Below the pieces are notes generated by a model. That model was not told the origin of the DNA. It worked only from the letters and a program-made list of their open reading frames with translations, and ran no database searches. Both the position numbers and the translations under genes were made by a program. 64,000 nt of DNA, from IMG/VR virus record IMGVR_UViG_3300027714_000004, positions 64,001 through 128,000 of that record; one strand, given 5' to 3'. Below are positions 1 through 61,751 of the stretch, in pieces. The DNA is from a virus. Numbering within the stretch: position 1 is the stretch's first letter; each line of letters opens with the position of its first letter.

Positions 1-795
1 TCAGGGGTGCGTAATTCGCATCTACTTGCAATAGCACCTAACGCATCGTCGGGAGTCATTTTATCAACGTCACCATCGATCGAACCACTGAAGGCTTGTG
101 CATACACGCACAGAACTCGTGCTGGTTCTTTCCTAGTGAAGAACGTCTATCTGACCAAACTCCTACGGGATAAGGGTCATGATAACGCGTCCACGTGGAC
201 TAGTATTATCACCAAGAAGGGGTCGGTGCAACACCTACCCTTCCTGAACGAAGGTGAGAAGGCAATATACAAGACCGCGGCGGAACTAGACCAGAATTGG
301 GTGGTGACTCATGCAGCCGACAGACAACCATTTATCTGTCAGGGGCAGTCCGTTAATCTATTCTTCCCATCGGGTACACCTAAGAGTTATGTTAATAAGG
401 TGCACTTCAACGCATGGAAGAAAGGATTGAAGGGATTGTACTATCTACGTACAGAAGCAAGTTCCCGTGCAGAGACCGTGTCAGACAAAGTAGAACGTGT
501 TGCGTTACAAGAAGACAACCGTACTATAGTCTATGGAAAGGACAACTGTCCGTTCTGTAAAATGGCAGTAGAGGAACTTACGATACGCGGGATAGTATTC
601 GATTACATTGATCTTGCGGAGATTAAGAAAACTGCCGCAGAGGTTACGGGTCGATCTGTAACGTCAGTTCCTCAGATCTACTATGAGGGAAGATATATCG
701 GAGGTTACGAAGATCTCATGATACATCTCAAGGGTGGTGCCGACTATGAGTTGGTGCAAGGGAACGACGATGAGTGCAGGGCCTGTGAAGGGTAA
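1..795 (+). CDS. nrdA: Ribonucleotide reductase class Ia alpha subunit, C-terminal part (5' truncated by window), with fused glutaredoxin domain
   Basis: AIAPNASS, SIEP, QGQSVNLF and KGLYYLRT motifs; Grx domain CPFC...VPQIY...IGGYEDL; terminal CRACEG; frame is open to base 1. Confidence 0.95.
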   Translation, partial: SGVRNSHLLAIAPNASSGVILSTSPSIEPLKACAYTHRTRAGSFLVKNVYLTKLLRDKGHDNASTWTSIITKKGSVQHLPFLNEGEKAIYKTAAELDQNWVVTHAADRQPFICQGQSVNLFFPSGTPKSYVNKVHFNAWKKGLKGLYYLRTEASSRAETVSDKVERVALQEDNRTIVYGKDNCPFCKMAVEELTIRGIVFDYIDLAEIKKTAAEVTGRSVTSVPQIYYEGRYIGGYEDLMIHLKGGADYELVQGNDDECRACEG

Positions 796-853
796 TCCAA
801 CAGATTAATTTTCGGGGGTCAATGCACCCCCTTACTATATTACAAGGACACAT

Positions 854-1828
854 ATGTCATTATTAAAAACTTCAGAAACATACAAACCTTTCCTATACCC
901 ATGGGCGGTAGATCTGACAAAGAAGCACGAAGAGATCCACTGGGTCGAAGATGAAGCGGAATTGTCCGAAGACGTACAGGATTGGAAGACCAAACTCTCT
1001 GATAAAGAAAAAGTGTTTATCACTCATGTGCTACGATTGTTTACTCAGTCTGACGTACAGGTAGGTGAGAATTACCATGAGCTTCTAATACCTAAGTTTA
1101 AGAATAATGAAGTTCGTAACATGTTAGCATCCTTTGCTAATCGTGAGGGAGTACACCAACGTGCGTACGCCCTGTTGAACGACACCCTAGGGTTACCCGA
1201 CGAAGACTTCCACGCATTCCTAGAGTACAAAGAGATGGCGGATAAGATCTCCTTTATGAAAGAGGGTAACAGTTCTAGTCATATGGGTCTCGCACTATCT
1301 CTAGCACAATCTGTGTTCAACGAAGGTATGTCTGTATTTGCATCATTCGTTATGTTACTTAACTTCCAACGTTTTGGAAAGATGAAGGGTATGGCAACAA
1401 TCGTCGAGTGGTCAATCCGCGACGAGACTCTTCATGTACAAGGTAACGCGAAACTATTCCGTGAGTTCTGCGAAGAGCATCCACGGGTCGTTAACGACGA
1501 ACTGAAGTCTAAGATCTACCAGATGGCTGAGAATGCTGTTGCACTAGAAGACAAGTTCATTCAACTTGCATTTAAAGGGAATGAGGTACAGGGTCTAACT
1601 AAGAAAGAAGTCCGCGACTATATTCGTCATATTGCGGATCGTCGTCTACTTCAGTTAGGTATGAAACCTTCATTCAAACAAAAAACAAATCCTCTACCTT
1701 GGTTGGACTGGGTACTGAACGGAGCATCACACGACAACTTCTTTGAGAAACGTGTTACAGAATATTCCGCGAATGGTATGGAAGGTGAAGACTTCGGTTG
1801 GGATGAACTGGAACAAGAGGAATCGTAA
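854..1828 (+). CDS. nrdB: Ribonucleotide reductase class Ia beta subunit
   Basis: Di-iron motifs EGVHQRAY, EG..FASF, RDETLH; NFFEKRVTEY tail; follows nrdA. Confidence 0.96.
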   Translation: MSLLKTSETYKPFLYPWAVDLTKKHEEIHWVEDEAELSEDVQDWKTKLSDKEKVFITHVLRLFTQSDVQVGENYHELLIPKFKNNEVRNMLASFANREGVHQRAYALLNDTLGLPDEDFHAFLEYKEMADKISFMKEGNSSSHMGLALSLAQSVFNEGMSVFASFVMLLNFQRFGKMKGMATIVEWSIRDETLHVQGNAKLFREFCEEHPRVVNDELKSKIYQMAENAVALEDKFIQLAFKGNEVQGLTKKEVRDYIRHIADRRLLQLGMKPSFKQKTNPLPWLDWVLNGASHDNFFEKRVTEYSANGMEGEDFGWDELEQEES

Positions 1829-3221: not shown

Positions 3222-3280
3222 TTGCTTTTTGTGAAACCCTGTGGTATAATAGCTATACAAATTGAGTTGAGAGAAAAATT
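3222..3280 (+). promoter_or_regulatory. Early promoter cassette
   Basis: TTGCTT-17-TATAAT-AGCTATAC...GAGAGA-ATG. Confidence 0.85.
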
Positions 3281-41247: not shown

Positions 41248-41248
41248 A

Positions 41249-42271
41249 ATGTATAATATAGAAATCAACCCTAAGAGGAATAAGATATCCTTCCATAATT
41301 CTAAAGTTGTTGAAGCGTTACCTGATTTCTATGATACCGAGTATCCATTATTCATTAAGTTCTTAGAAACTTACTATGACTATATGGATGGTGATGCCGA
41401 TGGGTCTTTTTCTAGAGTTATACGTGACCTATTCCACGGACGAAATATCTCCGCGTTAACATCTACAGTAGACGATCAAGGGAATCCCGTATATAACGAC
41501 TTCCTCGATCTGTTGTTCGATGAGATAGGGGATGGATTAAATTCGTCATCCTTCCATGACAACCCAAGAATGATGGCTCGGTTAATCTCTGACTTCTATC
41601 GTTCTAAAGGTACACAGATATCTGCTGAACAGTTCTTCAAAGCATTCTTCAATGAAGATGTCGAAGTAACGTATCCAAAGAGAAACATCTTCATACTGAA
41701 TGACCAACCCGGCGGTTCCTTAATTGGGCCAGAGTCGTTGAAGTACATTCAAGATGATAAGAGATACCAGATATTCTCGGTTCTTTTGAAAACAGGTCTA
41801 TCGTTCAGTGACTACGAAGACTTGTATAAGAGAATGGTACATCCTGCTGGATTCTACCTATCGGCAGACGTAGTTATCAATGGTCACGCTATAATGGGTG
41901 TACGTGCAGGTCTACCTACAGATCCACTCGCTCCCGCTGAATACCCAATGCAACTTGTCAGTCAGTCATCAGGTGCAAATGTTGTTCCAGAGTTCAACTT
42001 ATTGAACATGGCACATCCATCAGGGGCAGGTGGTATATCTCAGTTCAACTTACTGACTGCGTCAGATCCAGTTGACAGTCAATTACTGATCAGTTCTATG
42101 AAGATACTCGATCAGTATCATGATATGTCTCTAAGTAGATTGCAAGAGATCCACGGAACTATTGCTGAGTGGGGATCACCGAATTCGGTCACTATGGACG
42201 ACCAAAACATTCTCATGTCAGATACCGCTTATTGTAAAGATGCTGATGAAGCAGAAGATACACTACCATGA
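41249..42271 (+). CDS. Baseplate wedge initiator gp7-like (short)
   Basis: YPLFIKFLETYYDY, FYRSKGT and VHPAG motifs; follows gp6. Confidence 0.75.
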   Translation: MYNIEINPKRNKISFHNSKVVEALPDFYDTEYPLFIKFLETYYDYMDGDADGSFSRVIRDLFHGRNISALTSTVDDQGNPVYNDFLDLLFDEIGDGLNSSSFHDNPRMMARLISDFYRSKGTQISAEQFFKAFFNEDVEVTYPKRNIFILNDQPGGSLIGPESLKYIQDDKRYQIFSVLLKTGLSFSDYEDLYKRMVHPAGFYLSADVVINGHAIMGVRAGLPTDPLAPAEYPMQLVSQSSGANVVPEFNLLNMAHPSGAGGISQFNLLTASDPVDSQLLISSMKILDQYHDMSLSRLQEIHGTIAEWGSPNSVTMDDQNILMSDTAYCKDADEAEDTLP

Positions 42272-42307: not shown

Positions 42308-44500
42308 ATGACTAGACAAATCATAGGATTAGGTGCTGCTGCCAACAATAATAGTGGTGATACCCTACGAGCAGCTGGTAATAAGATTAATGATAATTTC
42401 AATGAAATCTATTCCCTACTTGAACTTACAGGTACAGATGGGACTGGAGTAACTCTTGCAGACTTAGAGTCTCTTATTGGTACATCGGTAGATAGCGCCC
42501 TAGGTTCTAGTAACTTGACTGGTGACCTCGCAGCACTTGTTGAGACCAACCAAGCAGACATTACGTATATCTTATCACAACTTACCACTGTTCAAGGATT
42601 GATTGATAGTGATACAGATGCGAGTGCCACAGCACGTGCAGATTTGTTAACCTATATCGATGTTAATGGAATCGACATCACGGTACTTTCTCAAGACATC
42701 GTAGACCTTAAAGTAACTCTAGAGAATAGTATTGCCGCTGCAAACAGTACTCTAACTGCACGTATCGACCAAACCGAAGATTCTCTTACTGTACTTGCAT
42801 CTGATGTAACTGCATTGGAAGTACAAACATCGACCGACCTTGGTGATGCAGTGTCTGCCGCAACAAGTTCATTGACTACCCGTATTGATGCAACTGATGA
42901 ATCGTATTCAGTCATAGCGTCCGATGTCACTGACTTGAAAGTTGGTTTAGCACTAATTGACTCCGACTTCATATCTGGGATCGCAGGCGCTACTGCTAAC
43001 ACCACACTCTTAGCTCGTCTTGACGCTAACTCTGATTCGATAAGTACGCTATCCGGACAATACACAAACCTCGGTACGACTCTTGATATCTTGGATAGTG
43101 GTGCAGTAACAACAATAGCCGCAGATGCGGATAAGGTACTGGAAGCAAGCATCACCGTGACAACAGATGGTAAAATAGCTGTAGTTAGTAAAAGTGTAAC
43201 CGATCTTACAACTATTCTGAAGGATAGTGAAAACGGAACTGTTTTAACAGGTAGTGCTGTAAACGCACTATCTACTCGTCTTGACGCAGATAGTAACAAG
43301 ATGTCTAGTGTAAGTGAGTCCTTAACCACTCTTACCGCTACTTTGAAGGATAGTCCTAATGGTACAATCCTCACTGGTAGTGCATTATCTTCACTATCTG
43401 CCGCAGTGTATGATTCTGAAAATGGTATTGGGTCTTTAAGTTCGGACATCGTCAGTCTAAACAATTCGTTAAAAGACAGTCCTAATGGAACTCTCATTAG
43501 TGCTAGTGCGGTATCTAGTTTAACTTCAGCAGTATTTCATGACTCCACTGGTCTTTCATCATTAAACAGTGACTTCACTGAGTTGAAGGGAACCCTAGGA
43601 GATTCGACAGGTGGAATTATTGCTAGTGTAGCAGCATTCGAAAGATTATCAGCTGACCTAAATTACAACTCTGATACTGGTACCACTTCCATAGATGCTA
43701 GTAAACTAACTAACTTGTCAGCTGCGATTGGAGACACAGTAAACGCAAGCGGTAGTGATGAATTATCAATATTATTATATGATAATTCTGATGGTGTTGG
43801 TGCACTGGGTACAAAGTTAACTACTCTAACCAATACCCTGAAGGATAGTCCTAATGGTACAGTACTCTCTGGTAGTGCGGTATCAGGACTTACCTCTCGT
43901 ATGGATGCGGATAGTGCTAGCCTTTCAGTATTAAACAGCGACTACACTAGGTTGAAGGGTACCCTAGAAGATTTGTCAACTGGACTTTTTGCTGAGGTCG
44001 AAGCACTAGAAGAATTGACTTCTAAGATAGTATTGGACTCTGCCGGAAACCTCGTAGTATCTGCTTCGAGTATTACTGACCTATCATCAACGATTGGTGG
44101 TGTTGTTTCTTCGGCAACATCTGGTATGATTACTTCTGCCACTTTAGCGGCAGCATTAGATAGTGGTGATCACGTTCCAGACCTAACATCCAAATACTTC
44201 GTCAACTTGAATGCCGGAGTCTTTGCAGGGTTCGAACTATTAAGTGGTGCTTCGGTATCATCTCTCGTTATGAGTGTAAATGACTTTAAGGTACAGACAC
44301 CAAGTGGTGACAACACCCCCTTTAGTGTTAACACTGAGGACGGTATTGTTGAGATGGAGAATGTACGACTTAAAGGTGAACTAGATATTGAACAAACGGT
44401 TGCTGGCGAAGGTACGTTGAAGATAGACAATCAGACGATAGTAATCAAAGACGCTTTGGGAAATGATCGTGTTAGATTCGGTAAACTAACACCAACTTAA
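42308..44500 (+). CDS. Tail fibre-like protein: gp9/gp10-type N-terminal anchor, coiled coil, C-terminal beta domain
   Basis: GDTLRAAGNKINDNFNEIY; LKDSPNGT repeats; C-terminal RVRFGKL. Confidence 0.75.
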   Translation: MTRQIIGLGAAANNNSGDTLRAAGNKINDNFNEIYSLLELTGTDGTGVTLADLESLIGTSVDSALGSSNLTGDLAALVETNQADITYILSQLTTVQGLIDSDTDASATARADLLTYIDVNGIDITVLSQDIVDLKVTLENSIAAANSTLTARIDQTEDSLTVLASDVTALEVQTSTDLGDAVSAATSSLTTRIDATDESYSVIASDVTDLKVGLALIDSDFISGIAGATANTTLLARLDANSDSISTLSGQYTNLGTTLDILDSGAVTTIAADADKVLEASITVTTDGKIAVVSKSVTDLTTILKDSENGTVLTGSAVNALSTRLDADSNKMSSVSESLTTLTATLKDSPNGTILTGSALSSLSAAVYDSENGIGSLSSDIVSLNNSLKDSPNGTLISASAVSSLTSAVFHDSTGLSSLNSDFTELKGTLGDSTGGIIASVAAFERLSADLNYNSDTGTTSIDASKLTNLSAAIGDTVNASGSDELSILLYDNSDGVGALGTKLTTLTNTLKDSPNGTVLSGSAVSGLTSRMDADSASLSVLNSDYTRLKGTLEDLSTGLFAEVEALEELTSKIVLDSAGNLVVSASSITDLSSTIGGVVSSATSGMITSATLAAALDSGDHVPDLTSKYFVNLNAGVFAGFELLSGASVSSLVMSVNDFKVQTPSGDNTPFSVNTEDGIVEMENVRLKGELDIEQTVAGEGTLKIDNQTIVIKDALGNDRVRFGKLTPT

Positions 44501-44517
44501 TCTAAGGAGATTATACG

Positions 44518-44832
44518 ATGTCTAATTATGGAATGGAAATTATAAGTCCAGATAGTGACGGTAATGGTAACTCGATAGTATCGCGAGTTGTTTTCTCCGA
44601 TAGTATTAGAACCTCCAATATCCAACTACACGAGACAATATCCTTGGCCAAGAATACAAGTACATTTATCTCTTGTCTAGATGCTAACGATCCCTCTAAA
44701 ATAATAATCACCTTTGAACAGGCCCGTGGTTTTGTTATAAGTAACAAGACCCCTCTTGGGTTTACAGTAACTAATGAATACCAGTACATGAACACTCTTA
44801 CTGGTACAGTCATCGCAGTGAGAATTGGATAA
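44518..44832 (+). CDS. Small fibre-module protein (MSxYGxEI type)
   Basis: N-terminal motif shared with 57407-57781; RBS AAGGAG. Confidence 0.75.
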   Translation: MSNYGMEIISPDSDGNGNSIVSRVVFSDSIRTSNIQLHETISLAKNTSTFISCLDANDPSKIIITFEQARGFVISNKTPLGFTVTNEYQYMNTLTGTVIAVRIG

Positions 44833-47800
44833 TGTCATACGGATTAAAAATTACGGGAAACGATGATGGCGGTAACTTCACGGTTGCCGACACTGATCTA
44901 GGCATGGTCAACTTAGTAGTTACCGATGTCGGTAGAGCATCGTCCTTCAATCTTGTAGGGGGTATTCAGCCGGGCGACTATATTTACGTGAGATATCCTT
45001 CTGCGCCTGGCGGTGGAGGGTATACTCCTATACAGATGGGAGAAGGTCTATCAGCGGTTCAGATAGATAGACCTTTAATCTATAATATAGATGCTGTCTT
45101 AGTTGCGGGTTCCCCTACCTCAGACATGACCATAAACTTTAAAGGTTCCGCATGGAAGTGGCTTAATTCTCCTAATTCATATCAATCTGATACACTCTAC
45201 ACATACAATGATTTCGTAGTAGATATGGATTACTTTGTAGTCCGTAAGGCTTCTACCATCAATGCACTGGGATTGGACACCTCAGAGGATTACGGTTTCC
45301 AACTACTCAACGTAGACAGTGTATCTGGTGCTAGTGAAATCGCACTTGATTCCAGAAGTTTTACCTCTGACAAAACCTTTTACATAGAAGGGTATCTGCC
45401 CCCAGACAATAACTTCGGCGAGATAAATGGCAATTCTACCACGTTATCCTATACAGATGGTTGTTACGTCAATCTAGAATGGTCTGCCAGATCAGCGGTT
45501 CCTTTCTTTCCGTCCTTCGGAGCAGCACCCCTTCTCGGACTTTCTATCACGGATACTATGGCATATAGTATTGACGGAGATACTACTATAGTAGGTGGTG
45601 GTGGAGAACCAGAATTACGAATCTGGTCTAGTTATAATGCAATATTTGCAGCTAAACTAGGAGCGGGTATATCTTCTTCCACACCACCCAATGAGTCAGG
45701 TGGTGGTACTGTAACTCCTCCACCAACTGAACCCAACGAAATCACAGGTACAATCGACTACGTATCTGGAAACACTGTGACCGAAGGTAACACAATATCC
45801 TTTAACGCAGTAACGTCTGTATCATCCAATTACCACACTCGCGTCTTTAGACTGTCTGGGTCGGCAGGGGATGCAGGAAAAGATTTCAATACCGTAACAT
45901 CTCCATTCACCGGAACCTCCCATACCGTGACGTTGAGCACATATGACACGAGCTCTGGTCAACAGACATTTAATAATATCTATAGTCAGGGTTATGTCGG
46001 AACTTACTCTAGAGACAGAGTATCTGCCTACACAAGAGAAGTAGCAGCTTCGTATAGTAGAACCTTCGTTGGCAACTTCATTGGTAACTATTCAGGTACT
46101 ACTTCTTACCAGACCGACTTCTCTAGTAACTATAATCAAACGGTTGATTACACAAGAACTATTTCGCGTACCGAATCATTCATCGGTAACTATTCACGTT
46201 CGAGATTAGCGGTATCCACACGAACTTCTATATACTCTAGAAATATATCGTATACCGGAAACTTCCTAGGGAACTATGCAGGAGCATACTCAAGAACTCG
46301 TACAAAAACTTCCTCCTACACCAGAGATTTTTCTAGGACGGACTCATATACGGGTAATTATGAAGCTTCGCGGGTGCTTTATGAAGGTGGTGATGAAGTT
46401 ACCTTCCCACTATTCTTCGTTTCATATTACTCTAGAGTCAGACCCTCTTCATTTGCGGGTACCTACACACGAAATAGAGCAGACAGTAATTCATACACAG
46501 GGTACTATAGTAGAACCAGTACCAGAACAGTACCTGCTTCATATCTAGGAACGTACAGTAGAAACAGAGTAAGTACATATGCTAGGTCTAGAGCAACCAG
46601 TGGTTCCCAAGTATTGACCTTCAATGGTACATACACTCGATACTTTTCTGGTGCTTACAGTCGGACAGGTTACTATTCAGGAGCATACACAGCATTTTAT
46701 ACCGGAAACTTTGGGCAGACAGCAGATTACTCTAGATTTCGTCAAGTATCCTTTACAGGAAACTATAGCAGGAACGTTACATCTACCAATACCTTCTCTC
46801 GTAGTTTCACTAATACTACCCCGTACTCGTCGGCGTATAGTCGTACGACCACGGGTACCATTACGGATCCAGCGTCCACGAGGAACGTTAATTACTCTAG
46901 GTCTTTCGTAGGGGACTATGCGAACACTGGTACCTTTATGGGTAACTTTGTAGGAAACTACCTTAGGTATTTTACAAGAAACGTAGGTTACGCTAGAACC
47001 ACCGTTGGATATCAGTATCTCCCAACTCCTAGAACCTACTGGTACGAGTATCCACATGCAGAACAGATTGACGAGCCAGGGGGCCCTCCCGCTATTCTCC
47101 TACGACATATCGTAGTTTATGTCGGTAACGTAATTGTTGCAACAGGAATATCTTCGAGCCTTAATCCCACAACATATCTTTTATCGGGTGGTGTATATTA
47201 CCATAAAGGTTCTCTTAATTATTCTTCAGCAGGTGATCAGACTTACTTTAGTATTGGTCAGAGTCTTGATGGTGGGCCACCGTCAGCGGGAACATCGTAT
47301 TACACTAGAACCGGATACTATGCAAGTTCTTACGCGGGTGCCTATGCAAGAACATTTGCTGGGACTGGTACCTTTTCAAGATCTCGTCTAATGGAATATT
47401 CAAGAGTCGTTCCATATACTTTGGTTCGTACTAGTACCTATACTGGGTATTACTCTAGAAGTTATACCTCAGGCGCAGTGAGAACTGCTTCATATACTGC
47501 GTACTATGCTGGCACAGCATCATATACTAGAAACCGTGCGGCTACCTACGGAGGAAACTACACGGGTGCTGCTGTAAGTTACATATATGATCCCGAATCT
47601 GGACAGTCAAGAGTTGTATCTCCATTCTCATCACGTCAACGTATTGCTTACTATTCGGGTACCTACACAAGAGGTCTTAGTTATAGCAGAAATAGACCAA
47701 TGTCCTATGCAGGAGCATACACCAGAACTAGCGCATACTCTGCAAGTTACGTAGGGAACTACAGCAGAACTTTATCGGATAGTTATTCGGGGACATATGC

Positions 47801-48878
47801 CAATACCTATATCGGTAACTATACTGGAGCATACTCTAGAACTATCACTCAAGGTACGACATTCACAGGTAACTATGCGGGTACAGGAACACAGAACTTC
47901 ACGGGTACATATTCTAGATGGACTACGAATAGCTTCACCCGAACCCGATTACATACTATTACCAGAACCAGTTCATACTCAAGAGGCCTTTCCTTCATAG
48001 GGGAGTATACCGGAATGTATACGCGGGATAGTGTGATAACTAGACCATCTACTCTGGACTACAATGGAATTGCAATATTCACAGAGAATTTTGCGGGAGA
48101 ATACACCAGAAATAGTGGTAGTGGATTTACGAAACTCTCTACGTATTCTAGAACAAATAGTTTTCTGGGTAATTATATCGGAAACTTTTCTAGAACAGAA
48201 ACTGGTACTCCAGAGTCTACTAGAAACAGAACCAGTTCATACACAAGGACTGGGGGAGCTAGTTACGAGAGAAATATAGTAGACAGTTATGTGGGTACAT
48301 ACATTGGTAATTACACGGGCGCATCAACTCGCACACCATCCAATACTTCTGAGATTGGTTGGCAGGGAGAGAGGTTCGTTATCGAATTGAGAAGAGGTTC
48401 GGACGCTACTTCTATAGCTGCGGCAAGAGGGACTATACCAGCATTGGATTCAAAGGAGTTTACTCTTATTGATAATGATACTGGTCTATTTGTAGCTATG
48501 TCTCCTCAAGTGTTGCACCATACCGCAACCCAACACGAACTTGTATTTGACTTCTTCACCGAAGGTACGTCAGTGGTTCCTGCTAGAATTTATAGAGGTT
48601 CCTCAATACTAGTTAACTCGTTCAACTTGGTATCTAATCAAAGAAATTCGGTGATGGTGAATGAAGTCCCACCGGAAGGTTCTAATTACATTTACACTCT
48701 GAAGGTGTTCGATGGTTCGAGTTGGGTATTGTCGTCATACTATCAGGTAACTAAAGTAACCGATACTGACTATACACCCCCAACAGATGGCGGTGGCGCC
48801 CCGACTCCGACCTATACTGCTCCCACTCCTGCTTATTATACGGGTGGTACACCCTCACCACCAAGCAACGAAAATTAA
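44832..48878 (+). CDS. Large virion fibre protein with Y/F-x-R/G-x tetrad repeat region
   Basis: MSYGLKI N-terminus; ~780-aa repeat region with a central ~95-aa non-repeat insert. Confidence 0.85.
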   Translation: MSYGLKITGNDDGGNFTVADTDLGMVNLVVTDVGRASSFNLVGGIQPGDYIYVRYPSAPGGGGYTPIQMGEGLSAVQIDRPLIYNIDAVLVAGSPTSDMTINFKGSAWKWLNSPNSYQSDTLYTYNDFVVDMDYFVVRKASTINALGLDTSEDYGFQLLNVDSVSGASEIALDSRSFTSDKTFYIEGYLPPDNNFGEINGNSTTLSYTDGCYVNLEWSARSAVPFFPSFGAAPLLGLSITDTMAYSIDGDTTIVGGGGEPELRIWSSYNAIFAAKLGAGISSSTPPNESGGGTVTPPPTEPNEITGTIDYVSGNTVTEGNTISFNAVTSVSSNYHTRVFRLSGSAGDAGKDFNTVTSPFTGTSHTVTLSTYDTSSGQQTFNNIYSQGYVGTYSRDRVSAYTREVAASYSRTFVGNFIGNYSGTTSYQTDFSSNYNQTVDYTRTISRTESFIGNYSRSRLAVSTRTSIYSRNISYTGNFLGNYAGAYSRTRTKTSSYTRDFSRTDSYTGNYEASRVLYEGGDEVTFPLFFVSYYSRVRPSSFAGTYTRNRADSNSYTGYYSRTSTRTVPASYLGTYSRNRVSTYARSRATSGSQVLTFNGTYTRYFSGAYSRTGYYSGAYTAFYTGNFGQTADYSRFRQVSFTGNYSRNVTSTNTFSRSFTNTTPYSSAYSRTTTGTITDPASTRNVNYSRSFVGDYANTGTFMGNFVGNYLRYFTRNVGYARTTVGYQYLPTPRTYWYEYPHAEQIDEPGGPPAILLRHIVVYVGNVIVATGISSSLNPTTYLLSGGVYYHKGSLNYSSAGDQTYFSIGQSLDGGPPSAGTSYYTRTGYYASSYAGAYARTFAGTGTFSRSRLMEYSRVVPYTLVRTSTYTGYYSRSYTSGAVRTASYTAYYAGTASYTRNRAATYGGNYTGAAVSYIYDPESGQSRVVSPFSSRQRIAYYSGTYTRGLSYSRNRPMSYAGAYTRTSAYSASYVGNYSRTLSDSYSGTYANTYIGNYTGAYSRTITQGTTFTGNYAGTGTQNFTGTYSRWTTNSFTRTRLHTITRTSSYSRGLSFIGEYTGMYTRDSVITRPSTLDYNGIAIFTENFAGEYTRNSGSGFTKLSTYSRTNSFLGNYIGNFSRTETGTPESTRNRTSSYTRTGGASYERNIVDSYVGTYIGNYTGASTRTPSNTSEIGWQGERFVIELRRGSDATSIAAARGTIPALDSKEFTLIDNDTGLFVAMSPQVLHHTATQHELVFDFFTEGTSVVPARIYRGSSILVNSFNLVSNQRNSVMVNEVPPEGSNYIYTLKVFDGSSWVLSSYYQVTKVTDTDYTPPTDGGGAPTPTYTAPTPAYYTGGTPSPPSNEN

Positions 48879-48940: not shown

Positions 48941-49420
48941 ATGAACTTGAAACTTGTAGTATATGTAACAATCGATACTGGAAAGATATCTAGAATCGCA
49001 TTACCCAACCATAATATAGATGCCGAAGGTGTCTCTGAAGATGGAACTTTGCGTATTATCCATATACATGAAGGTAATGTACCTGAAGGATGTAATGATC
49101 TAAGATACTTCCTAGACTATCACTGGTACGACCAAGAGACCGAATCTTTTGAGTTTATCGGACTACCACCTAATCGTCATGCTGAATGGAGTTCTGCGGA
49201 CGGTTGGACTTGGGACGAAGATCTACTGTTGCAAGACATTCTCCTAGAAAGAACCAAATTCTTATTTGCCTCCGATTGGACTCAGGCATTAGACGTTCCC
49301 CTAACAGAATCCAAACTCCAAGAGTGGAGAGACTATAGACAGGCATTGAGAGATCTCTCGACTAATGTCGGAAGTGTGTCTTCAGTGTCAGAAGTTGTTT
49401 GGCCAACAGTACCGAATTAA
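48941..49420 (+). CDS. Tail fibre assembly chaperone-like protein
   Basis: SDWTQ..D.PL...W..YRQALRDL...WP. Confidence 0.85.
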   Translation: MNLKLVVYVTIDTGKISRIALPNHNIDAEGVSEDGTLRIIHIHEGNVPEGCNDLRYFLDYHWYDQETESFEFIGLPPNRHAEWSSADGWTWDEDLLLQDILLERTKFLFASDWTQALDVPLTESKLQEWRDYRQALRDLSTNVGSVSSVSEVVWPTVPN

Positions 49421-49436
49421 ATAATAGGAATATACA

Positions 49437-50765
49437 ATGCTAGCCATCGTAAGACAAACAATGAGATCCCGTTTAGCAAAGGACTTATTACAAAGCGCCC
49501 AAGATATATCAAACCATTACTTTATTGGTATTGGTAAGTCTGACATTTTCAACGAGACCGACACAGTAATTGCTGCTGTCGACACGTCGAATGAAGAGAA
49601 AGAATTCAGAAACAATCTACAATCTGTTAAAAGTCTTGAAGCATCATCATTGGTGATCCCTCGTGTCAATTGGTCTAGTGGTTCATTGTACTCTGCTTGG
49701 TCGGATAAAGAGACTACATACCCATCCTATGTGATGAATGAACAGAAAGAAGTGTACCTTTGTTTGGCACAGGGTGGTACTAAAGATAATCCAAACTTGT
49801 CGACTGTATCTCCAAACTATGGTCTTGTTGGGCCAGATGCTTATCTAACTCCTTTTGTGACTTCTGATAACTATGAGTGGAAATATATGTTTTCGCTATC
49901 ACCAGAACGAGTAGTTAGTTTCCTATCTGCTAACTACATTCCCGTACTGGTATCAGACAAACTACCTGCCGAAGCAGGCCCATTCGAAGATCTATTGATC
50001 GAAGTTCAAGATTCTGCCATTCCAAGACAATTGGTTTCCGTAGAGATTGTTGAAGATGGAACTGGTTATGTCGATGGAGACCTTCCATTAATCATCGATG
50101 GTGATGGAGCAGATGCTGCTGGTACTGTTACTATATTAGGTAATAAGGCAGTTAGAGTTACCATGACTAATCGTGGAACCGACTACAGACATGCGAGTGT
50201 CAGTATTGGCGGTGTAGGAACAGGATGCGTATTAAGAGCTGTTCTATCCGATAGTAATGGACTGGGCAATGATCAGGCAAATGATTTTAAAACAAGTTCA
50301 GTTATGTTCACCATAAAACCAAATGGCGTTGAGGGTGATACTTTTATTGTAGAGAACACTTTCCGTCAAATGGGTTTGTTGAAAGATCTTAACAATTCTG
50401 CTGACGATACTCCGTTCATGGGTACGGGACTCAAAGTACTACCTTATGTAAGATTGACCGCAGCTTCTGGATTTACTTCGGGTAACCAAATTCAAGGTAC
50501 CGATTCAAACGCAGTTGGGTACATTAATGAATCTGTAAACAACAACGTATACTTCCACCAGAATGAAAGTACTGGATTTAAGTCTTTCACTATAGGTGAA
50601 CAAGTCACTGAAATTGGTGGATCTGCTAGTGGTGTCGTCTCTCTTGTATACGCAGACAATGGCGTAGATCGGTTCTCTGGCGAAGTCCTATATATTGAGA
50701 ACAGACACAGAATACAACGTGACGCACAACAACAAGAAGACATTAAGTTAGTAATCACCGTTTAA
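49437..50765 (+). CDS. gp8: Baseplate wedge subunit gp8
   Basis: IPRVNWSSG, VYLCL, DNYEWKYMF; SGEVLYIENR...QQEDIKLVI. Confidence 0.88.
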   Translation: MLAIVRQTMRSRLAKDLLQSAQDISNHYFIGIGKSDIFNETDTVIAAVDTSNEEKEFRNNLQSVKSLEASSLVIPRVNWSSGSLYSAWSDKETTYPSYVMNEQKEVYLCLAQGGTKDNPNLSTVSPNYGLVGPDAYLTPFVTSDNYEWKYMFSLSPERVVSFLSANYIPVLVSDKLPAEAGPFEDLLIEVQDSAIPRQLVSVEIVEDGTGYVDGDLPLIIDGDGADAAGTVTILGNKAVRVTMTNRGTDYRHASVSIGGVGTGCVLRAVLSDSNGLGNDQANDFKTSSVMFTIKPNGVEGDTFIVENTFRQMGLLKDLNNSADDTPFMGTGLKVLPYVRLTAASGFTSGNQIQGTDSNAVGYINESVNNNVYFHQNESTGFKSFTIGEQVTEIGGSASGVVSLVYADNGVDRFSGEVLYIENRHRIQRDAQQQEDIKLVITV

Positions 50766-56096: not shown

Positions 56097-56336
56097 ATGA
56101 ATAATCATCAAAGAGTAGAAGGTCATAACAACTTAGTACGGGATAGGCGAACTGGTGTTGTCCTAAATAACAATAAGACTGAAATCGAAAACGCAAGAAA
56201 ACTAAGTATAATACAACAAGAAAAAGAGGATCATATCAACACTCTTACTAATGAGATAGACTCACTAAGAACAGATATGGATCAAATAAAAGAATTGCTT
56301 TTTCGTTTAGTAAAGGATAAAGAAGATGGCAGATAA
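56097..56336 (+). CDS. Conserved small coiled-coil protein that follows VrlC-like genes
   Basis: VEGHNNLVRD..TG.VLN; heptad C-terminus. Confidence 0.8.
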   Translation: MNNHQRVEGHNNLVRDRRTGVVLNNNKTEIENARKLSIIQQEKEDHINTLTNEIDSLRTDMDQIKELLFRLVKDKEDGR

Positions 56337-58536: not shown

Positions 58537-58992
58537 ATGAGTAAAATATTAGCATACACGCATAAAGATACTGGAGAAGTTACTTCGGTAGTTACAATGT
58601 CTCTAGACGGTGGTTGTCCGGAAGATGGTGAAAGTGTAGGTGATTCTATTGTAAGAGACATTACCGACATTGCTCAAGATGATTGGGCTTCGTACTCTGA
58701 AACTAAGTACTGGGATAATGGTTGGGTTACCCGTGGAGAGAAACCTTCGTCAAATCATATATGGCAAGACGGTGAATGGGTATTCAATGTAGTACACTTC
58801 TCTTTTCAAGTTCGTATAAGAAGACTAGAACTTCTAAATCAAAGTGACTGGACTCAAATGCCAGACAGTCCTCTATCCGAAGAGATGAAGACTGCATGGG
58901 GAGAGTATCGACAAGAACTCCGTGATATGACCATACTTCTTTCGGATATAGTCTCCGAAGAAGAACTTGATTGGCCTGCAACCCCAGAATAA
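58537..58992 (+). CDS. Tail fibre assembly chaperone-like protein
   Basis: SDWTQMPDSPL...W.EYRQELRD...WP. Confidence 0.85.
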   Translation: MSKILAYTHKDTGEVTSVVTMSLDGGCPEDGESVGDSIVRDITDIAQDDWASYSETKYWDNGWVTRGEKPSSNHIWQDGEWVFNVVHFSFQVRIRRLELLNQSDWTQMPDSPLSEEMKTAWGEYRQELRDMTILLSDIVSEEELDWPATPE

Positions 58993-59111: not shown

Positions 59112-61751
59112 GTGTCCGCATCCAGTATACCCCTAAAAATTAAAAATAGCGCAGGTGACCTACAGGAATTCAGCCCCGAAGAAGAAATGTTTCTTGCGGT
59201 AAAATTGGGAGAGTCTTTATCAGAGTCTTCTGCTGGTGATATCGGAGACATTAGTCTAACGGGTGATGTTAATATAGGATCGTTTGTAGACACGTACTAC
59301 AACGAAGTTACGGGTACTCACCCAGCATCAAACATTACAGGAACTACCGTTACTACTACATTAAAACAGGTAGGTGGTTCTGCGTCAGAGACTGGATCAG
59401 ATTTCATAAGACCTATAGGTTATTATCAAAGCAGTTCAAATGCTGGATTCTACGATATGGTAGATCTAGATTTGAATAATTTAACAACTCGTGCACTGAG
59501 AACTGTTGAGACATTAGGTCTTCAGGGTACATTCGAATTATCATCAACTACGCCAGGCACTGATTGGGTAAAACATGTAGATAACGTGTTTACAGATACC
59601 ATCGGTGACGGTACCTCGGTAGTATACCATATTTGGAAACGTGTGACACTAGCAACTCCACCAGCGGGTCTAGCCACCGTACGACCAATGGCAACAACTT
59701 ATGACGGATCTACCTTTGATGGGTTTAAAGAAATGTCAGACGATCAGATCAAGGCTACCCTTGGTCAACGTGCTAAAACTCTTCGAGCAACAGTAGGATC
59801 TATTGGTTCTTATCAGTTGCGTTCATCCGCTCAAGGAGCTCCCACTTCAGCAGGTACTTGGGATGCACGTGGTTCTGCTACTAATACTCAACGAACCCTT
59901 GTTGACGCCGACTATTCTCGTACTCGTAATTCTGCATATACTCGCACTAGAGTTTCTGCATATTCACGTGATCGACAGTCTACATATACCCTAGACCGCA
60001 CAGAATCATTCTCAAGGAATTTTACTGGTGACTTCGCTGGTACATATACTAGAGACTTCGCTGGTACATATACTAGCGATTTTACTGGAGTATATTCTAG
60101 AACTCGTCCTTCAACATATAGTCGTAGTAGACTAGAGGCATTCACTGGTTATTTTGCGGGTACTTATAATCGTGCACGAGTATCTACCTATACTAGTGAT
60201 AGGATAGAAGGGTTCTCTTCAGCATATTCACGTGCACGAGTATCTACCTATACACGTAGTCGTATTACCGACTTCGCTGGAAACTTCGTTGCAGGATATT
60301 CTAGAGGATTTGCTTCAGATTATTCGCGAACCTTTATCGGTGCATATTCATCTTCTTACTTTGGTGATTTTGTAGGAAACTATGCTCGTACTTCTACTCT
60401 AGTTTCCACACGCACTCGGTACTCTACATACACACGAAATAGTATAACTAACACTCCCGTCTCTTATATGGGTAATTTCGTAGGGTATTATACTGGAGAT
60501 TTCGCAAGTTCATACTCAAGAACTACATCGGGCACATATGCTCGGACGTTAGCATACTCTCGTACACTGTATTATACTGTTAGTTTCGTAGGAAACTTTT
60601 CTCGCGCAGCTGCGGGGTATTACACCGGAAACTATGCTCGTACACGAGATATGTCATATTGGGCATATTACGCTCGTAATATTGCTTACACAGGGTATTA
60701 CTCTCGCAGCGCCAGTCAAGGTGCATCATATTTCAGAAACATGGTGTCTACTCGTTTCCGATATGGTACTACCAGAAACGCTCAGGCATTTCCCAGCGAC
60801 ACCTCTCTCGACGGTAATTTAATTATACCTTGGTATTTTGCGGGGGACTTTGCAACTGCATTTGAATATGTTGCATACTACCCAGGCGGCACCTACACAC
60901 GTTCAAGACTTGTCTCTAACACTTATGCCAGAGTCATCCCCCTCTACTACGTGGGAAATTATAGTAGGACTGTAGGCGTTAACTACGTAGGTAACTATGC
61001 GAGAACGCGTGTAGCAAGCAGTCAAGGTACTGGTTACTATGCGACCACCTCAAACTACTCTTCTTCATACACGGGATATTACTCTAGAAACCAGACTCTT
61101 ACTTATGCTGGTGCTTATGCACGAGCTCGTGCGAGTGTTGTACAAGATACATTTGTAGGTGACTACGCAAGAACATTTGCAGGTGCCTTCTCTAGTCAAT
61201 TTGTTGGCGAATATACCACAACATCTACAAGAACTCGATTAGCTTCGTTTGTCAGAAATAGAGTGCAGGCGTATACGAACACACGATCTTCGACATATTC
61301 TCGTGATCGTGTTGCTAATTTTGCAGGAGAGTTTACTGGTAACTACACAACAACATTCTCTGGAGACTATTCTCGAACCTTTGCTGGTAACTTTGTAGGT
61401 AACTATACCACAACCTTTATTGGTGACTTTGCAGGAGCATATGCTAATACCTTTACAGGAGAATTTGTTGGAGACTTCACTACTAATTATGTAGGCAACT
61501 ATAGTCGTGTACGTGTATCTGCGTACGCTCGACTACGTACCTCAACCTATACTGGCCCTTACACAAGTGACCGCGCATCGACGTACATCGGAAATTTCAC
61601 TTCGGACTACACGCGTGAATTTGTTGGAAACTATTCGAGAGATTTTGCTGGTCAATATTCACGTGCTTACCTCGGAAACTATACTGGTACAACTATTAGT
61701 GATGTGATCTATACCCCAGAAACATATACCTTATACGTAAGGATTGCATAA
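59112..61751 (+). CDS. Virion protein with mirror-symmetric tetrad repeat region (predicted giant beta-hairpin)
   Basis: N-terminal 267-aa domain, 593-aa repeat region, short C-terminal strand; late promoter upstream. Confidence 0.85.
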   Translation: MSASSIPLKIKNSAGDLQEFSPEEEMFLAVKLGESLSESSAGDIGDISLTGDVNIGSFVDTYYNEVTGTHPASNITGTTVTTTLKQVGGSASETGSDFIRPIGYYQSSSNAGFYDMVDLDLNNLTTRALRTVETLGLQGTFELSSTTPGTDWVKHVDNVFTDTIGDGTSVVYHIWKRVTLATPPAGLATVRPMATTYDGSTFDGFKEMSDDQIKATLGQRAKTLRATVGSIGSYQLRSSAQGAPTSAGTWDARGSATNTQRTLVDADYSRTRNSAYTRTRVSAYSRDRQSTYTLDRTESFSRNFTGDFAGTYTRDFAGTYTSDFTGVYSRTRPSTYSRSRLEAFTGYFAGTYNRARVSTYTSDRIEGFSSAYSRARVSTYTRSRITDFAGNFVAGYSRGFASDYSRTFIGAYSSSYFGDFVGNYARTSTLVSTRTRYSTYTRNSITNTPVSYMGNFVGYYTGDFASSYSRTTSGTYARTLAYSRTLYYTVSFVGNFSRAAAGYYTGNYARTRDMSYWAYYARNIAYTGYYSRSASQGASYFRNMVSTRFRYGTTRNAQAFPSDTSLDGNLIIPWYFAGDFATAFEYVAYYPGGTYTRSRLVSNTYARVIPLYYVGNYSRTVGVNYVGNYARTRVASSQGTGYYATTSNYSSSYTGYYSRNQTLTYAGAYARARASVVQDTFVGDYARTFAGAFSSQFVGEYTTTSTRTRLASFVRNRVQAYTNTRSSTYSRDRVANFAGEFTGNYTTTFSGDYSRTFAGNFVGNYTTTFIGDFAGAYANTFTGEFVGDFTTNYVGNYSRVRVSAYARLRTSTYTGPYTSDRASTYIGNFTSDYTREFVGNYSRDFAGQYSRAYLGNYTGTTISDVIYTPETYTLYVRIA

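What the first reader, a model, noticed from the sequence alone, without database searches (positions are those of the whole stretch)
45981..48335. Second mirror-hairpin filament, with a tip domain and side loops, inside a fibre-module protein
Seen: the 1348-aa ORF has the same tetrad grammar in two arms of about 340 and 345 residues around a ~95-aa non-repetitive insert (about 47010-47295). Reading outward from the insert, stutters mirror (VG/GY, GT/GT, VN/VP, GY/LS, LT/SA, NS/TT, SS/LS, IS/LD, SI/AI, IS/ST, VD/NS). R tetrads again mostly face G tetrads (FVGD/RLME, FTGN/RAAT, RQVS/YGGN, YTGN/RIAY, FSGA/RPMS, RATS/YVGN, RADS/FTGN, RTKT/FIGE, YTGN/RPST, RLAV/FAGE, FVGN/RTSS), with a few exceptions (RVST/LSDS, RTES/FTKL, RVSA/IVDS). 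Each arm has one unpaired bulge (RVLYEGGDEVTFPLF; AVSYIYDPESGQSRVVSPF). Inference: a stalk of roughly 110 nm that presents a small receptor-binding domain at its apex. The same module in two different host proteins suggests a portable, length-tunable extension element.
Basis: partly seen in the sequence, partly recalled or inferred. Interest (0 to 1): 0.88.

Follow-up and report, generated by a model that had tools for sequence, protein, structure and literature searches.

The report
Fold-back beta-hairpin stalk in phage fibre
A baseplate fibre protein of an uncultured marine T4-like phage most likely sends about 345 residues out as a thin beta strand, caps them with a small fast-evolving tip domain and pairs them with the returning strand, a design so far known only at about one-seventh of this length in the T4 tail-fibre tip.

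Summary
ORF 44832-48878 (1348 aa) has two arms built on a four-residue repeat, aa 384-726 and 823-1170. They flank a 96-aa non-repeat domain (nt 47010-47297).

Four lines of evidence point to a fold-back antiparallel stalk:
- **Closed base.** The sequences on either side of the arms fold in AlphaFold2 into a single Ig-like beta-sandwich, so arms plus tip are an ~785-aa insertion whose two ends sit together.
- **Matched arm lengths.** In 30 homologues the arms range over 272-466 and 244-503 aa and covary (r=0.94).
- **Mirrored stutters.** The +2 stutters mirror each other (z=4.2 against unit shuffles), with ungapped in-phase blocks of 33, 84 and 132 residues.
- **Independent register.** AlphaFold2 of the tip with short arm stubs gives symmetric strands in the same register, i+j=1544.

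Arg faces Gly more often than expected and never faces Arg, but I found no compensatory covariation.

The tip folds confidently and matches no known fold. It is the most divergent domain and also caps members of a second protein family.

The stalk length (up to ~115 nm), the oligomeric state and receptor binding are untested. No Pfam, PHROG, PDB or literature match was found. The scan had already flagged this kind of element in other marine phage genomes and in the paralogue in this window.

The parts
44832..48878 (+). Whole gene, 1348 aa (P0001): baseplate-module fibre protein carrying the hairpin stalk
   Evidence: ORF list and translation. A 99%-identical copy lies on 9 contigs, and 30 full-length homologues were found. 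Conserved synteny: gp6, wedge, gp10-like, 104-aa ORF, this gene, chaperone, gp8, DUF4815.
44832..45728 (+). N-terminal domain, aa 1-299, non-repeat; presumed baseplate attachment
   Evidence: Conserved in all homologues at 29-60% identity. No Pfam or PHROG match. The attachment role is inferred from its position only.
45729..45980 (+). N-terminal half of a split Ig-like beta-sandwich, aa 300-383
   Evidence: AF2 pLDDT 56-88. VIA-align matches of 85-113 residues span both halves (model 8..922): HAP2 D3 Z 8.2, C3/C4/A2M MG domains Z about 7, Calx-beta CBD2 Z 5.9. Invariant residues G306, E318, G319, H335, D351.
45981..47009 (+). Arm 1, aa 384-726, outgoing strand of tetrad repeats
   Evidence: Position-specific composition and +2 stutters. 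Pairing map. 37 Arg against 1 Lys; no His or Cys.
46368..46427 (+). Arm-1 side loop (bulge), aa 513-532, core VLYEGGDEVTFPL
   Evidence: Falls in an alignment gap of the antiparallel alignment. The same position and motif (EG.D....P..F) occur in P0003-P0010.
46848..46892 (+). Irregular stretch in arm 1, aa 673-687 (contains Pro680), where the register shifts from 1544 to 1543
   Evidence: Its partner region in arm 2 (aa 859-870) also contains a Pro.
47010..47297 (+). Tip domain, aa 727-822: small all-beta domain at the apex
   Evidence: AF2 pLDDT 78-95. Homologous in all 30 relatives, with the pattern W ... G.V ... YYhkG ... YY.vg.S. It is the most divergent domain: 31-39% identity where the flanks are 63-82%. 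It holds 5 of the 17 differences to the 99%-identical variant. No fold match.
47298..48341 (+). Arm 2, aa 823-1170, returning strand of tetrad repeats
   Evidence: As for arm 1.
47562..47660 (+). Arm-2 side loop region, aa 911-943 (core AVSYIYDPESGQSRVVSPF)
   Evidence: Falls in alignment gaps. A related cassette (FY.M.NGE.RVSSHLYTR) sits on arm 1 in P0008 and P0009 and twice on arm 2 in P0007, where it accounts for their arm-length differences.
48342..48485 (+). C-terminal half of the split Ig-like sandwich, aa 1171-1218 (EIGWQGERFVIELRRG ... FTLIDNDTG)
   Evidence: AF2 pLDDT 70-82. It aligns together with the N-half to single Ig-like domains. This is the most conserved part of the family, at 71-82% identity. 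Invariant residues E1174, G1179, E1180, F1182, L1186, D1214, D1216, G1218.
48486..48875 (+). C-terminal beta domain (aa 1219-about 1300) and Pro/Thr-rich tail (aa 1301-1348)
   Evidence: Conserved at 27-75% identity. No family match. Function not established.
48941..49420 (+). Tail-fibre assembly chaperone gene directly downstream
   Evidence: Pfam PF16778 Phage_tail_APC, E 1.8e-15; PHROG tail fibre assembly families. The same neighbour follows homologue P0008 on two contigs.
59112..61751 (+). Paralogous hairpin protein (879 aa), the only other carrier of the repeat in this 145-kb genome
   Evidence: Gap-free antiparallel register i+j=1125 over 285 residues. Search of the window's own genome.

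Best explanation
P0001 is a fibre protein of the baseplate module of an uncultured marine T4-like phage (145-kb virus record; nearest named relative Phage C48C1, Kyanoviridae).

Architecture. After a 299-aa N-terminal domain comes an Ig-like beta-sandwich. Into one of its loops about 785 residues are inserted. This insert forms a fold-back stalk: arm 1 (343 aa) runs outward as a beta strand, a 96-aa all-beta domain caps the far end, and arm 2 (348 aa) runs back antiparallel to arm 1 and re-enters the sandwich.

How the register is kept. The repeat has four positions.
- Positions 1 and 3 lie on one face of the strand. Position 1 is aromatic or Arg and faces an aromatic residue. Position 3 is Arg on one arm where it is Gly or a small residue on the other. 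Bulky planar side chains therefore interleave and two Arg never meet.
- Positions 2 and 4 (Thr, Ser, Ala, Val, Asn, Asp) form the other face.
- Two-residue stutters occur at mirrored places, so the four-residue phase is kept along the stalk.
- Short beta-hairpin cassettes bulge out sideways on either arm.

Evolution. Stalk length changes by matched gain or loss of units on both arms.

Likely function. The tip is the part that touches the host.

Status of each step:
- Shown computationally: the repeat, the mirrored stutters, the arm-length covariation, the closure by the split Ig-like domain, and the confident tip fold.
- Inferred: actual strand pairing along the whole length, the stacking chemistry, the length (at most about 115 nm), whether one chain or several make the stalk, and receptor binding.
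For: Context:
- The gene lies among gp6, wedge, gp9/10-like, gp8 and DUF4815 genes and is followed by a Phage_tail_APC chaperone. The same order holds around homologue P0008.

Closure at the base:
- AF2 of aa 296-1235 gives pLDDT 56-88 for aa 301-375 and 70-82 for aa 1175-1217.
- VIA-align aligns 85-113 residues spanning model 8..922 to single Ig-like domains at Z 6-8.2. That is more than the about 75 residues the N-half alone could supply.

Arm lengths:
- r=0.94 over 30 homologues, with ranges 272-466 and 244-503 aa and about 16 distinct pairs.
- The second family also has matched arms, for example 214/193, 254/243 and 238/262.

Mirror symmetry:
- Phase-only alignment z=4.2 for P0001, and above the null mean in all 23 proteins tested, z 0.1-5.5.
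- Antiparallel 77 against parallel 51 and shuffles 49 +/- 5.8.
- Ungapped in-phase blocks of 132, 84 and 33 residues. The block at the base (i+j=1545) and the block at the tip (1544) lie on almost the same antidiagonal.

Independent register:
- AF2 of aa 660-890 gives strand pairs 25-37/189-201 and 50-65/161-176. All have i+j=226, which is 1544 in protein numbering.

Complementarity:
- 22 R:G, 0 R:R and 5 G:G over 315 pairs.
- P0001's path transferred to 6 homologues scores 544, against -477 to 140 at shifts of 4k.

Chemistry:
- 71 Arg against 2 Lys in the arms.
- Only even autocorrelation lags.

Tip:
- pLDDT 78-95.
- 31-39% identity where the flanks are 63-82%.
- 5.2% of tip residues differ from the 99%-identical variant, against 0.3-0.6% in the arms.

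Portability:
- The same tip family caps P0035, P0041, P0043, P0045, P0050 and P0062 of the other family.
Against: - AF2 gave pLDDT 25-30 for most of both arms and even paired arm 1 locally with itself. There is therefore no structural model of the stalk beyond about 35 residues from the tip, and there the pLDDT is only about 40-70.
- No contact map or PAE was available.
- Compensatory change was not detected. New R:G pairs in homologues number 16 at the proposed register, against 6-19 at shifted ones. The strong transfer score may therefore reflect conservation only.
- The 0 R:R count comes from a path optimised with a score that penalises R:R. On the unbiased path the excess is modest: R:G 16 against 11.6 expected, R:R 3 against 4.7 expected.
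- The homologues are related, so the arm-length correlation is not 30 independent events.
- Near the tip the optimiser preferred a different register (1558) from the one AF2 and the aromatic ladder give (1544).
- A free two-stranded ribbon over 100 nm long has no solved precedent that I could find.
Confidence: 0.68

Rival explanations
1. The topology is fold-back as above, but the stalk is a homotrimer. Three chains each go out and return, giving a six-stranded needle like the T4 gp37 tip, with one face of each hairpin buried in a common core.
For: - Known phage fibres are mostly trimers (general knowledge).
- The T4 gp37 tip is described as a six-stranded antiparallel needle with three chains forming the head (PMC9659904).
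- A tail-fibre assembly chaperone gene lies directly downstream; such chaperones usually help trimeric fibres fold.
- A lone two-stranded ribbon of this length looks fragile.
- Monomer AF2 failed on the arms, as it often does for obligate oligomers.
Against: - Both closing domains, the split Ig-like sandwich and the tip, fold confidently as single chains. The gp37 head, by contrast, is intertwined.
- There are no His-x-His motifs anywhere in the protein.
- There is no sequence match to any solved chain.
Confidence: 0.3
2. One-way fibre with a knee. The two arms are successive rod segments of a parallel, probably trimeric, fibre. The 96-aa domain is a hinge between them, like the kink between the half-fibres of the T4 long tail fibre. 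The arms never pair.
For: - Two rods of equal length joined by a knee exist in the T4 long tail fibre (general knowledge).
- AF2 gives no confident arm-arm pairing beyond the tip region.
- Residue-level covariation is absent.
Against: - The flanks of the arms form one Ig-like domain, which puts both roots together.
- The stutters are mirrored, not repeated in the same order: parallel alignment scores 51, close to the shuffle mean of 49, against 77 antiparallel.
- The base and tip registers coincide at 1545 and 1544.
- AF2 strands next to the tip are symmetric about it.
- A bulge cassette on one arm lengthens only that arm, as in P0007 and P0008, as expected if the paired length is what is conserved.
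Confidence: 0.08
3. The arms have no fixed partner. They are a sticky or flexible low-complexity Tyr/Arg/Gly/Ser region, disordered or forming ad hoc beta contacts. The mirror pattern is a by-product of periodicity.
For: - The composition (Y, R, G, S, T) resembles low-complexity binding or phase-separating sequences.
- AF2 pLDDT is very low over the arms.
- Several of my alignment controls were dominated by the period alone.
Against: - A strict even-lag periodicity holds over about 690 residues.
- Position-specific composition is conserved in two families.
- Stutter positions are mirrored beyond unit shuffles.
- Arm lengths are matched in two protein families.
- Arg is strongly preferred over Lys, 71 to 2.
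- The paralogue keeps one gap-free register over 285 residues with 24 R:G and no R:R.
Confidence: 0.05

Closest known systems
Needle and head of the phage T4 long-tail-fibre tip, gp37 residues about 811-1026 (PDB 2XGF, Bartual et al. 2010; described in PMC9659904)
   Same: - It is a phage fibre in which the chain runs out as beta strand to a distal domain and returns antiparallel, so the receptor-binding part is in the middle of the sequence and not at the C-terminus.
- It lies in a T4-like tail gene module.
- A dedicated fibre chaperone is encoded nearby.
   Different: - Length: the out-and-back part of gp37 is about 50 residues each way (from my own knowledge); here it is about 345.
- Sequence: no similarity (no PDB hit with a family profile at E <= 1; no Pfam or PHROG hit).
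- Metal sites: no His-x-His motifs, whereas the gp37 needle is held by iron ions bound to histidines (my own knowledge; the paper itself was not held).
- Repeat: here there is a strict four-residue repeat with an Arg/Gly complement.
- Closure: here the stalk is an insertion in an Ig-like domain.
- Oligomer: here the tip folds confidently as one chain, whereas the gp37 head is formed by three chains intertwining. Trimer status here is unknown.
Paralogue in this window (59112-61751, 879 aa) and its family, including the 3347-aa protein of Phage C48C1 (OQ984149.1, 141011-151054)
   Same: - Same tetrad repeat and same position-specific composition.
- Matched arms.
- Several members carry the same tip-domain family at the apex. 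By eye, C48C1 aa 1300-1365 does too, although it did not reach the HMM threshold.
   Different: - Different scaffold: a 265-285-aa N-domain and a conserved 22-aa C-terminal peptide (..ETYTLYVR.A) close the hairpin instead of a split Ig-like sandwich.
- The copy in this window has only a 24-aa loop, no tip domain, almost no stutters and a much cleaner R:G code.
- C48C1 looks branched: one Arg-rich arm is apparently matched by several Gly-rich segments separated by globular domains.
Ig-like beta-sandwich domains (MG domains of complement C3/C4 and alpha-2-macroglobulin, HAP2 domain 3, Calx-beta CBD2)
   Same: The two flanks of the insert together superpose on these domains at Z 5.9-8.2, rmsd 2.8-4.5 A, with 85-113 aligned residues. 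The invariant acidic residues E318, D351, E1174, E1180, D1214 and D1216 recall the acidic calcium sites of Calx-beta, a resemblance drawn from memory.
   Different: No Pfam match to Calx-beta or to any Ig-like family, for the halves or for the whole protein. The Z values lie in the range the tool calls common. I know of no member of these families that carries an ~785-residue hairpin inserted in a loop.
One-way trimeric beta fibres: the triple beta-helix of T4 gp5C and gp12, and the adenovirus/reovirus triple beta-spiral
   Same: They are repetitive, beta-rich, thin rods of viral attachment proteins.
   Different: From my own knowledge, those repeats have periods of about 8 and about 15 residues and run one way, with the receptor-binding domain at the C-terminus. 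Here the period is 4 with +2 stutters. The two halves mirror each other. The distal domain is in the middle of the chain.

Membership tests
T4 gp37-type receptor-binding tip (needle plus head) | Detectable sequence or profile similarity to gp37 C-terminal regions | tested here: not met
   The profile of 25 family members found no hit in any PDB chain sequence at E <= 1. Pfam and PHROGs gave 0 families for the whole protein.
T4 gp37-type receptor-binding tip (needle plus head) | The chain runs out to a distal domain and returns antiparallel | tested here: met
   Computational only: split Ig-like domain closure, mirrored stutters, arm-length covariation r=0.94, and AF2 strand symmetry at i+j=1544.
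T4 gp37-type receptor-binding tip (needle plus head) | His-x-His motifs that bind metal ions along the needle (feature recalled from my own knowledge) | tested here: not met
   There is no H.H anywhere in the protein, and only 1 His in the 691 arm residues.
T4 gp37-type receptor-binding tip (needle plus head) | Homotrimer with a six-stranded needle and an intertwined head | not testable with these tools
   The complex predictor was closed. Confident single-chain folds of the tip and base hint at a monomer-compatible design but do not decide the matter.
Phage tail fibre or baseplate-attached fibre protein (functional class) | Encoded inside the baseplate or tail-fibre gene module with a fibre-assembly chaperone next to it | tested here: met
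   gp6, wedge, gp9/10-like, gp8 and DUF4815 neighbours, with PF16778 directly downstream. The same order holds around P0008.
Phage tail fibre or baseplate-attached fibre protein (functional class) | Present in the virion and visible as a fibre | not testable with these tools
   The phage is uncultured (IMG/VR-type record, 88% complete). No proteome or micrograph is available.
Calx-beta / Ig-like beta-sandwich (the domain that hosts the insert) | Beta-sandwich fold formed by one contiguous domain | tested here: inconclusive
   The fold is met in the AF2 model (Z 5.9-8.2), but the domain is split by about 785 residues and the Z values are in the common range. The Calx-beta CBD2 match is only Z 5.9.
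Calx-beta / Ig-like beta-sandwich (the domain that hosts the insert) | Match to the Pfam family model | tested here: not met
   No Calx-beta or Ig-family hit for the halves at E <= 10 or for the whole protein. A split domain lowers the power of this test.
Triple beta-helix / triple beta-spiral fibre repeats | Repeat period of about 8 or about 15 residues, one-way parallel trimer | tested here: not met
   The period is 4 with +2 stutters and only even lags. Antiparallel mirror symmetry was found instead.

The most novel reading that the evidence does not exclude
The stalk is a single chain: a two-stranded beta-hairpin more than 100 nm long. Its register would be set by a readable residue code (aromatic opposite aromatic or Arg; Arg opposite Gly or a small residue; mirrored two-residue stutters). 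It would be closed at the base by a split Ig-like domain, and its length tuned in evolution by matched insertions in both arms. That would be a new class of fibrous protein architecture, a protein analogue of a nucleic-acid hairpin. It could carry interchangeable tip domains and side cassettes and could be used as a programmable molecular ruler.
Probability: 0.35. Interest if true: 0.9.

Novelty: new variant of a known kind. Interest (0 to 1): 0.74.

Why it matters
If the model is right, these marine T4-like phages reach their hosts with a fibre built on a principle very different from the textbook one-way trimeric rods. The chain goes out and comes back, the host-contacting domain sits in the middle of the gene, and length is set by the number of matched four-residue units.

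- **Annotation.** It tells annotators where to look for the host-range determinant in this clade: the central 96 residues, not the C-terminus.
- **Structural biology.** It offers a rare, simple system in which partner residues can be read from the sequence. Only 63 clusters at 50% identity were found among 1.84 billion representative proteins.
- **Engineering.** It offers a natural scaffold with swappable tips, insertable side loops and lengths from tens to perhaps hundreds of nanometres.
- **Open physics.** It also raises the question of how such a thin beta structure is stabilised.

Tried and rejected
- **AF2 of aa 296-1235 with a 25-sequence alignment.** The arms came out at pLDDT 25-30 with local self-pairing, so it is uninformative for the stalk.
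- **Rotation null for the antiparallel alignment.** It was flawed, because free end gaps let rotated arms realign to the true register.
- **Cross-homologue control (arm 1 of X against arm 2 of Y).** It was dominated by arm length and shared periodicity: P0001 self 77 against a cross mean of 75.5. It is not a valid null.
- **Phase-only alignment.** It cannot tell registers 4 residues apart, and for the paralogue and several homologues it chose a shifted register with excess R:R.
- **Correcting arm lengths for bulges found by the aligner.** This did not reduce the spread overall (sd 16.6 to 16.0). It worked only for clear cases such as P0007.
- **Search for compensatory R/G changes in six homologues.** No excess at the proposed register.
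- **Search for a shorter 'empty-site' homologue (N-domain plus intact Ig-like domain, no arms).** None was found; the short hits are all members of the other hairpin family.
- **Family and structure look-ups.** None of these gave a match:
  - Pfam and PHROGs on the whole protein and on each domain.
  - PDB sequence profile.
  - ESM Atlas.
  - Tip-domain fold searches: VIA wide best Z 4.3; Foldseek PDB nothing at E <= 0.001; BFVD top hit a gp38-domain protein at E 9e-4 but TM 0.26 and rmsd 13.8, which I do not accept.
- **Literature.** Five full-text searches found no description of such a repeat or stalk. Bartual et al. 2010 was not held.
- **DNA-level explanation (tandem or inverted repeats).** Rejected.
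- **Beta-solenoid with a longer turn period.** There is no long period in the autocorrelation.

Full report
**What is there.** The finding lies inside one ORF, 44832-48878 on the + strand, 1348 aa, kept as P0001. The window is part of a 145,426-bp virus record, estimated 88% complete. GC content is about 42%. The surrounding genes are a T4-type baseplate module:
- gp6-like, 39475-41247
- a wedge subunit, 41216-42271
- a gp9/10-like protein, 42308-44500
- a 104-aa ORF
- P0001
- a Phage_tail_APC fibre-assembly chaperone, 48941-49420
- gp8-like, 49437-50765
- a 1770-aa DUF4815 protein

The same order surrounds homologue P0008 on two independent contigs. The nearest named phage is Phage C48C1 (Kyanoviridae), with gp6 49% identical. 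Cyanomyoviruses and pelagiphage HTVC008M follow at about 32%.

**Check of the observation.** Aa 384-726 and 823-1170 are made of four-residue units. Position 1 is Y/F (63%) or R (17%). Position 3 is G (30%) or R (24%). Positions 2 and 4 are mostly T, S, A, N. All strong autocorrelation lags are even, as expected for beta strands, and there is no longer period that would suggest a solenoid. Departures from the period are almost all two-residue insertions. The arms hold 71 Arg but only 2 Lys, 1 His and no Cys. At the DNA level the gene has no tandem or inverted repeats. The pattern is therefore maintained at the protein level and is not an assembly or duplication artefact.

**Is the mirror real?** I tested it in several ways, and some controls failed.
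- *Class-score alignment.* The score rewards aromatic:aromatic, aromatic:Arg and Arg:Gly and penalises Arg:Arg. It gives 77 for arm 1 against reversed arm 2 and 51 for the parallel orientation. 200 shuffles of arm-2 units give 49 +/- 5.8, maximum 67.
- *Phase-only alignment.* This uses only the four-residue phase, so it tests nothing but the placement of stutters. It gives 242 against 220 +/- 5.2, z=4.2. It is above the null mean in all 23 proteins tested, z 0.1-5.5.
- *Resulting map.* It contains long ungapped in-phase blocks: 383-514 with 1162-1031 (132 residues, i+j=1545), 533-616 with 1027-944 (84 residues, 1560), 633-672 with 910-871 (1543) and 688-720 with 856-824 (1544). The block at the base and the block at the tip fall on almost the same antidiagonal, so the extra residues on the two arms balance.
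- *Controls that were not valid or not discriminating.* These were a rotation null and pairing arm 1 of one homologue with arm 2 of another.

**The Arg/Gly rule.** On the optimised path there are 22 R:G, 0 R:R and 5 G:G among 315 pairs. That path was chosen with a score that favours exactly this. On the unbiased phase-only path the position-3 pairs give R:G 16 (expected 11.6) and R:R 3 (expected 4.7). Transferring P0001's path to six homologues (45-56% identical) scores 544, against -477 to 140 for shifts of 4k residues, with R:G 104 against 33-83 and R:R 17 against 25-78. But pairs that are new in the homologues are not enriched at the proposed register, 16 against 6-19. This shows conservation, not compensatory change. 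The rule is far cleaner in the paralogue at 59112-61751. There a single gap-free register (i+j=1125) over 285 residues gives 34 aromatic:aromatic, 22 aromatic:Arg, 24 R:G and no R:R. Neighbouring in-phase registers give R:G 5-15 and R:R 2-11.

**Independent evidence for fold-back.**
1. *Closure at the base.* AlphaFold2 on aa 296-1235 failed on the arms (pLDDT 25-30) but modelled aa 301-375 and 1175-1217 with pLDDT 56-88. A search of about 48,000 solved chains aligned 85-113 residues spanning both stretches to single Ig-like sandwiches: HAP2 domain 3 at Z 8.2, MG domains of C3, C4 and alpha-2-macroglobulin at Z about 7, and Calx-beta CBD2 at Z 5.9. The N-side stretch alone has only about 75 residues, so both halves take part. 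The ~785 residues of arms and tip are thus an insertion in one domain, and their two ends must sit together. The invariant residues of the family cluster in this split domain: G306, E318, G319, H335, D351, E1174, G1179, E1180, F1182, L1186, D1214, D1216, G1218.
2. *Arm lengths.* I anchored each of 30 homologues on the flank HMMs and on two conserved tip columns. Arm lengths range over 272-466 and 244-503 residues and correlate at r=0.94 (Spearman 0.89), with about 16 distinct pairs. Where the arms differ, a side-loop cassette explains it. P0007 has two copies of FY.M.NGE.RVSSH on arm 2 (arm 2 is 24 residues longer). P0008 and P0009 have one on arm 1 plus a longer first bulge (arm 1 is 31 longer).
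3. *Register from AlphaFold2.* AlphaFold2 on aa 660-890 gave the tip at pLDDT 78-95. It gave two flanking strand pairs, 25-37 with 189-201 and 50-65 with 161-176. All have i+j=226, which is 1544 in protein numbering. This is the register in which eight successive position-1 residues face each other through two stutters on each arm. Confidence in these strands is low to moderate, about 40-70, so this is corroboration and not proof.

**The tip.** The 96-aa domain is homologous in all 30 relatives, with the pattern W ... G.V ... YYhkG ... YY.vg.S. It is all-beta. It has no significant match in solved or predicted viral structures: best VIA Z 4.3, nothing from Foldseek PDB, and a BFVD gp38-domain hit at TM 0.26 that I do not accept. 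It is the most divergent part, at 31-39% identity in P0003-P0010 where the Ig halves are 63-82%. It also holds 5 of the 17 differences to a 99%-identical variant: 5.2% of its residues against 0.3-0.6% in the arms. That fits a host-contact surface, but nothing here tests binding.

**Portability.** Only two genes in this genome carry the repeat. The second family has a 265-285-aa N-domain and a conserved C-terminal peptide ..ETYTLYVR.A. Its members range from 489 to 3347 aa and also have matched arms. Six of its members carry the same tip-domain family at their apex, one of them twice. The 3347-aa protein of Phage C48C1 has an Arg-rich arm of about 600 residues near the N-terminus. It also has several Gly-rich segments near the C-terminus, separated by globular domains, which together are about as long as the Arg-rich arm. 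It looks like a decorated or branched version. Across 1.84 billion representative proteins only 63 clusters match at E <= 0.001, and about 8 of them have the P0001 architecture. The element is rare and confined to this group of marine phages.

**How it most likely works.** The chain leaves an Ig-like domain, runs out about 345 residues, folds the tip, and runs back in antiparallel register. One face carries a ladder of Tyr/Phe and Arg, with Gly or small residues opposite Arg. The other face carries small polar and aliphatic residues. Mirrored two-residue stutters keep the phase. Short NG-turn hairpins bulge out sideways. If the ribbon is fully extended the stalk is at most 113-117 nm (343 x 0.33-0.34 nm); twisting or coiling would shorten it. 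Whether one chain suffices or three assemble as in the T4 gp37 needle is open. The complex predictor was closed. The confident single-chain folds of both closing domains lean towards a monomer-compatible design, while the adjacent chaperone and the precedent of trimeric fibres lean the other way.

**Comparison with what is known.** The nearest precedent is the T4 gp37 tip, described as a six-stranded antiparallel needle with three chains forming the head (PMC9659904). The shared principle is out-and-back beta strands with the distal domain in mid-sequence. The differences are these:
- about seven-fold greater length
- the tetrad repeat with an Arg/Gly complement
- no His-x-His motifs
- no detectable homology
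- insertion into an Ig-like domain

I therefore file it as a new variant of a known kind. About a one-in-three chance remains that it is a single-chain ribbon, which would be a new class.

**Earlier notes of this scan.** Other first readers and follow-up agents flagged the same type of element in other marine phage genomes and in the paralogue here. I used one of those notes as a lead, namely that the hairpin sits in a loop of an Ig/Calx-beta-like domain, and tested it.

Noticed in passing
L001:8197-18240 (Phage C48C1, OQ984149.1 141011-151054): A 3347-aa member of the second hairpin family. It has an Arg-rich arm (aa 263-860) and a distal hairpin with a tip-like domain at aa 1300-1365. It then has Gly-rich repeat segments (aa 2053-2408, 2561-2641, 2803-2883, 3061-3133, 3252-3324) separated by 120-160-aa globular domains. 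It looks like one stem decorated with several side domains. It also contains an exact tandem duplication of about 75 aa (KTRHRSYLYYSTDTS ... NFSGQY, around aa 2002-2155), which may be real or an assembly artefact.
   Followed up: partly
window 48941-49420 and 58537-58992: Two paralogous Phage_tail_APC (PF16778) fibre-assembly chaperone genes. One lies directly after P0001. The other lies directly before the second hairpin gene and after a Phage_Tail_Tip-like gene (56326-57405). Which fibre each one serves is not clear.
   Followed up: partly
window 45747-45884 and 48351-48479 (aa 306-351 and 1174-1216 of P0001): The invariant residues of the family cluster in the split Ig-like domain and include six acidic ones (E318, D351, E1174, E1180, D1214, D1216). 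They could form a calcium site at the root of the stalk, as in Calx-beta domains. No Pfam match supports this.
   Followed up: no
window 62309-63046: The gene two places downstream of the second hairpin gene gives a weak Glycos_transf_2 match (E 0.004, below the Pfam cut-off). I did not test that.
   Followed up: no
P0045 aa 547-626 and 676-757 (metagenomic protein of the second family): Two tandem copies of the tip-domain family sit at one hairpin apex.
   Followed up: no
window 46001 (aa 390) with 48296 (aa 1155): In the 99%-identical variant P0002, Gly390 is Arg. Its predicted partner in register i+j=1545 is Gly1155. The single change therefore turns one of the few G:G pairs into an R:G pair. 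This is only one event.
   Followed up: partly
window 46677-47057, minus strand: A 126-aa ORF lies antisense inside the gene, across the end of arm 1 and the start of the tip. There is no evidence that it is a gene, and it is probably a chance open frame.
   Followed up: no
window 48732-48875 (aa 1301-1348): A Pro/Thr/Tyr-rich C-terminal tail that ends in a short conserved ..N[IL].. motif in most homologues. Its function is unknown.
   Followed up: no
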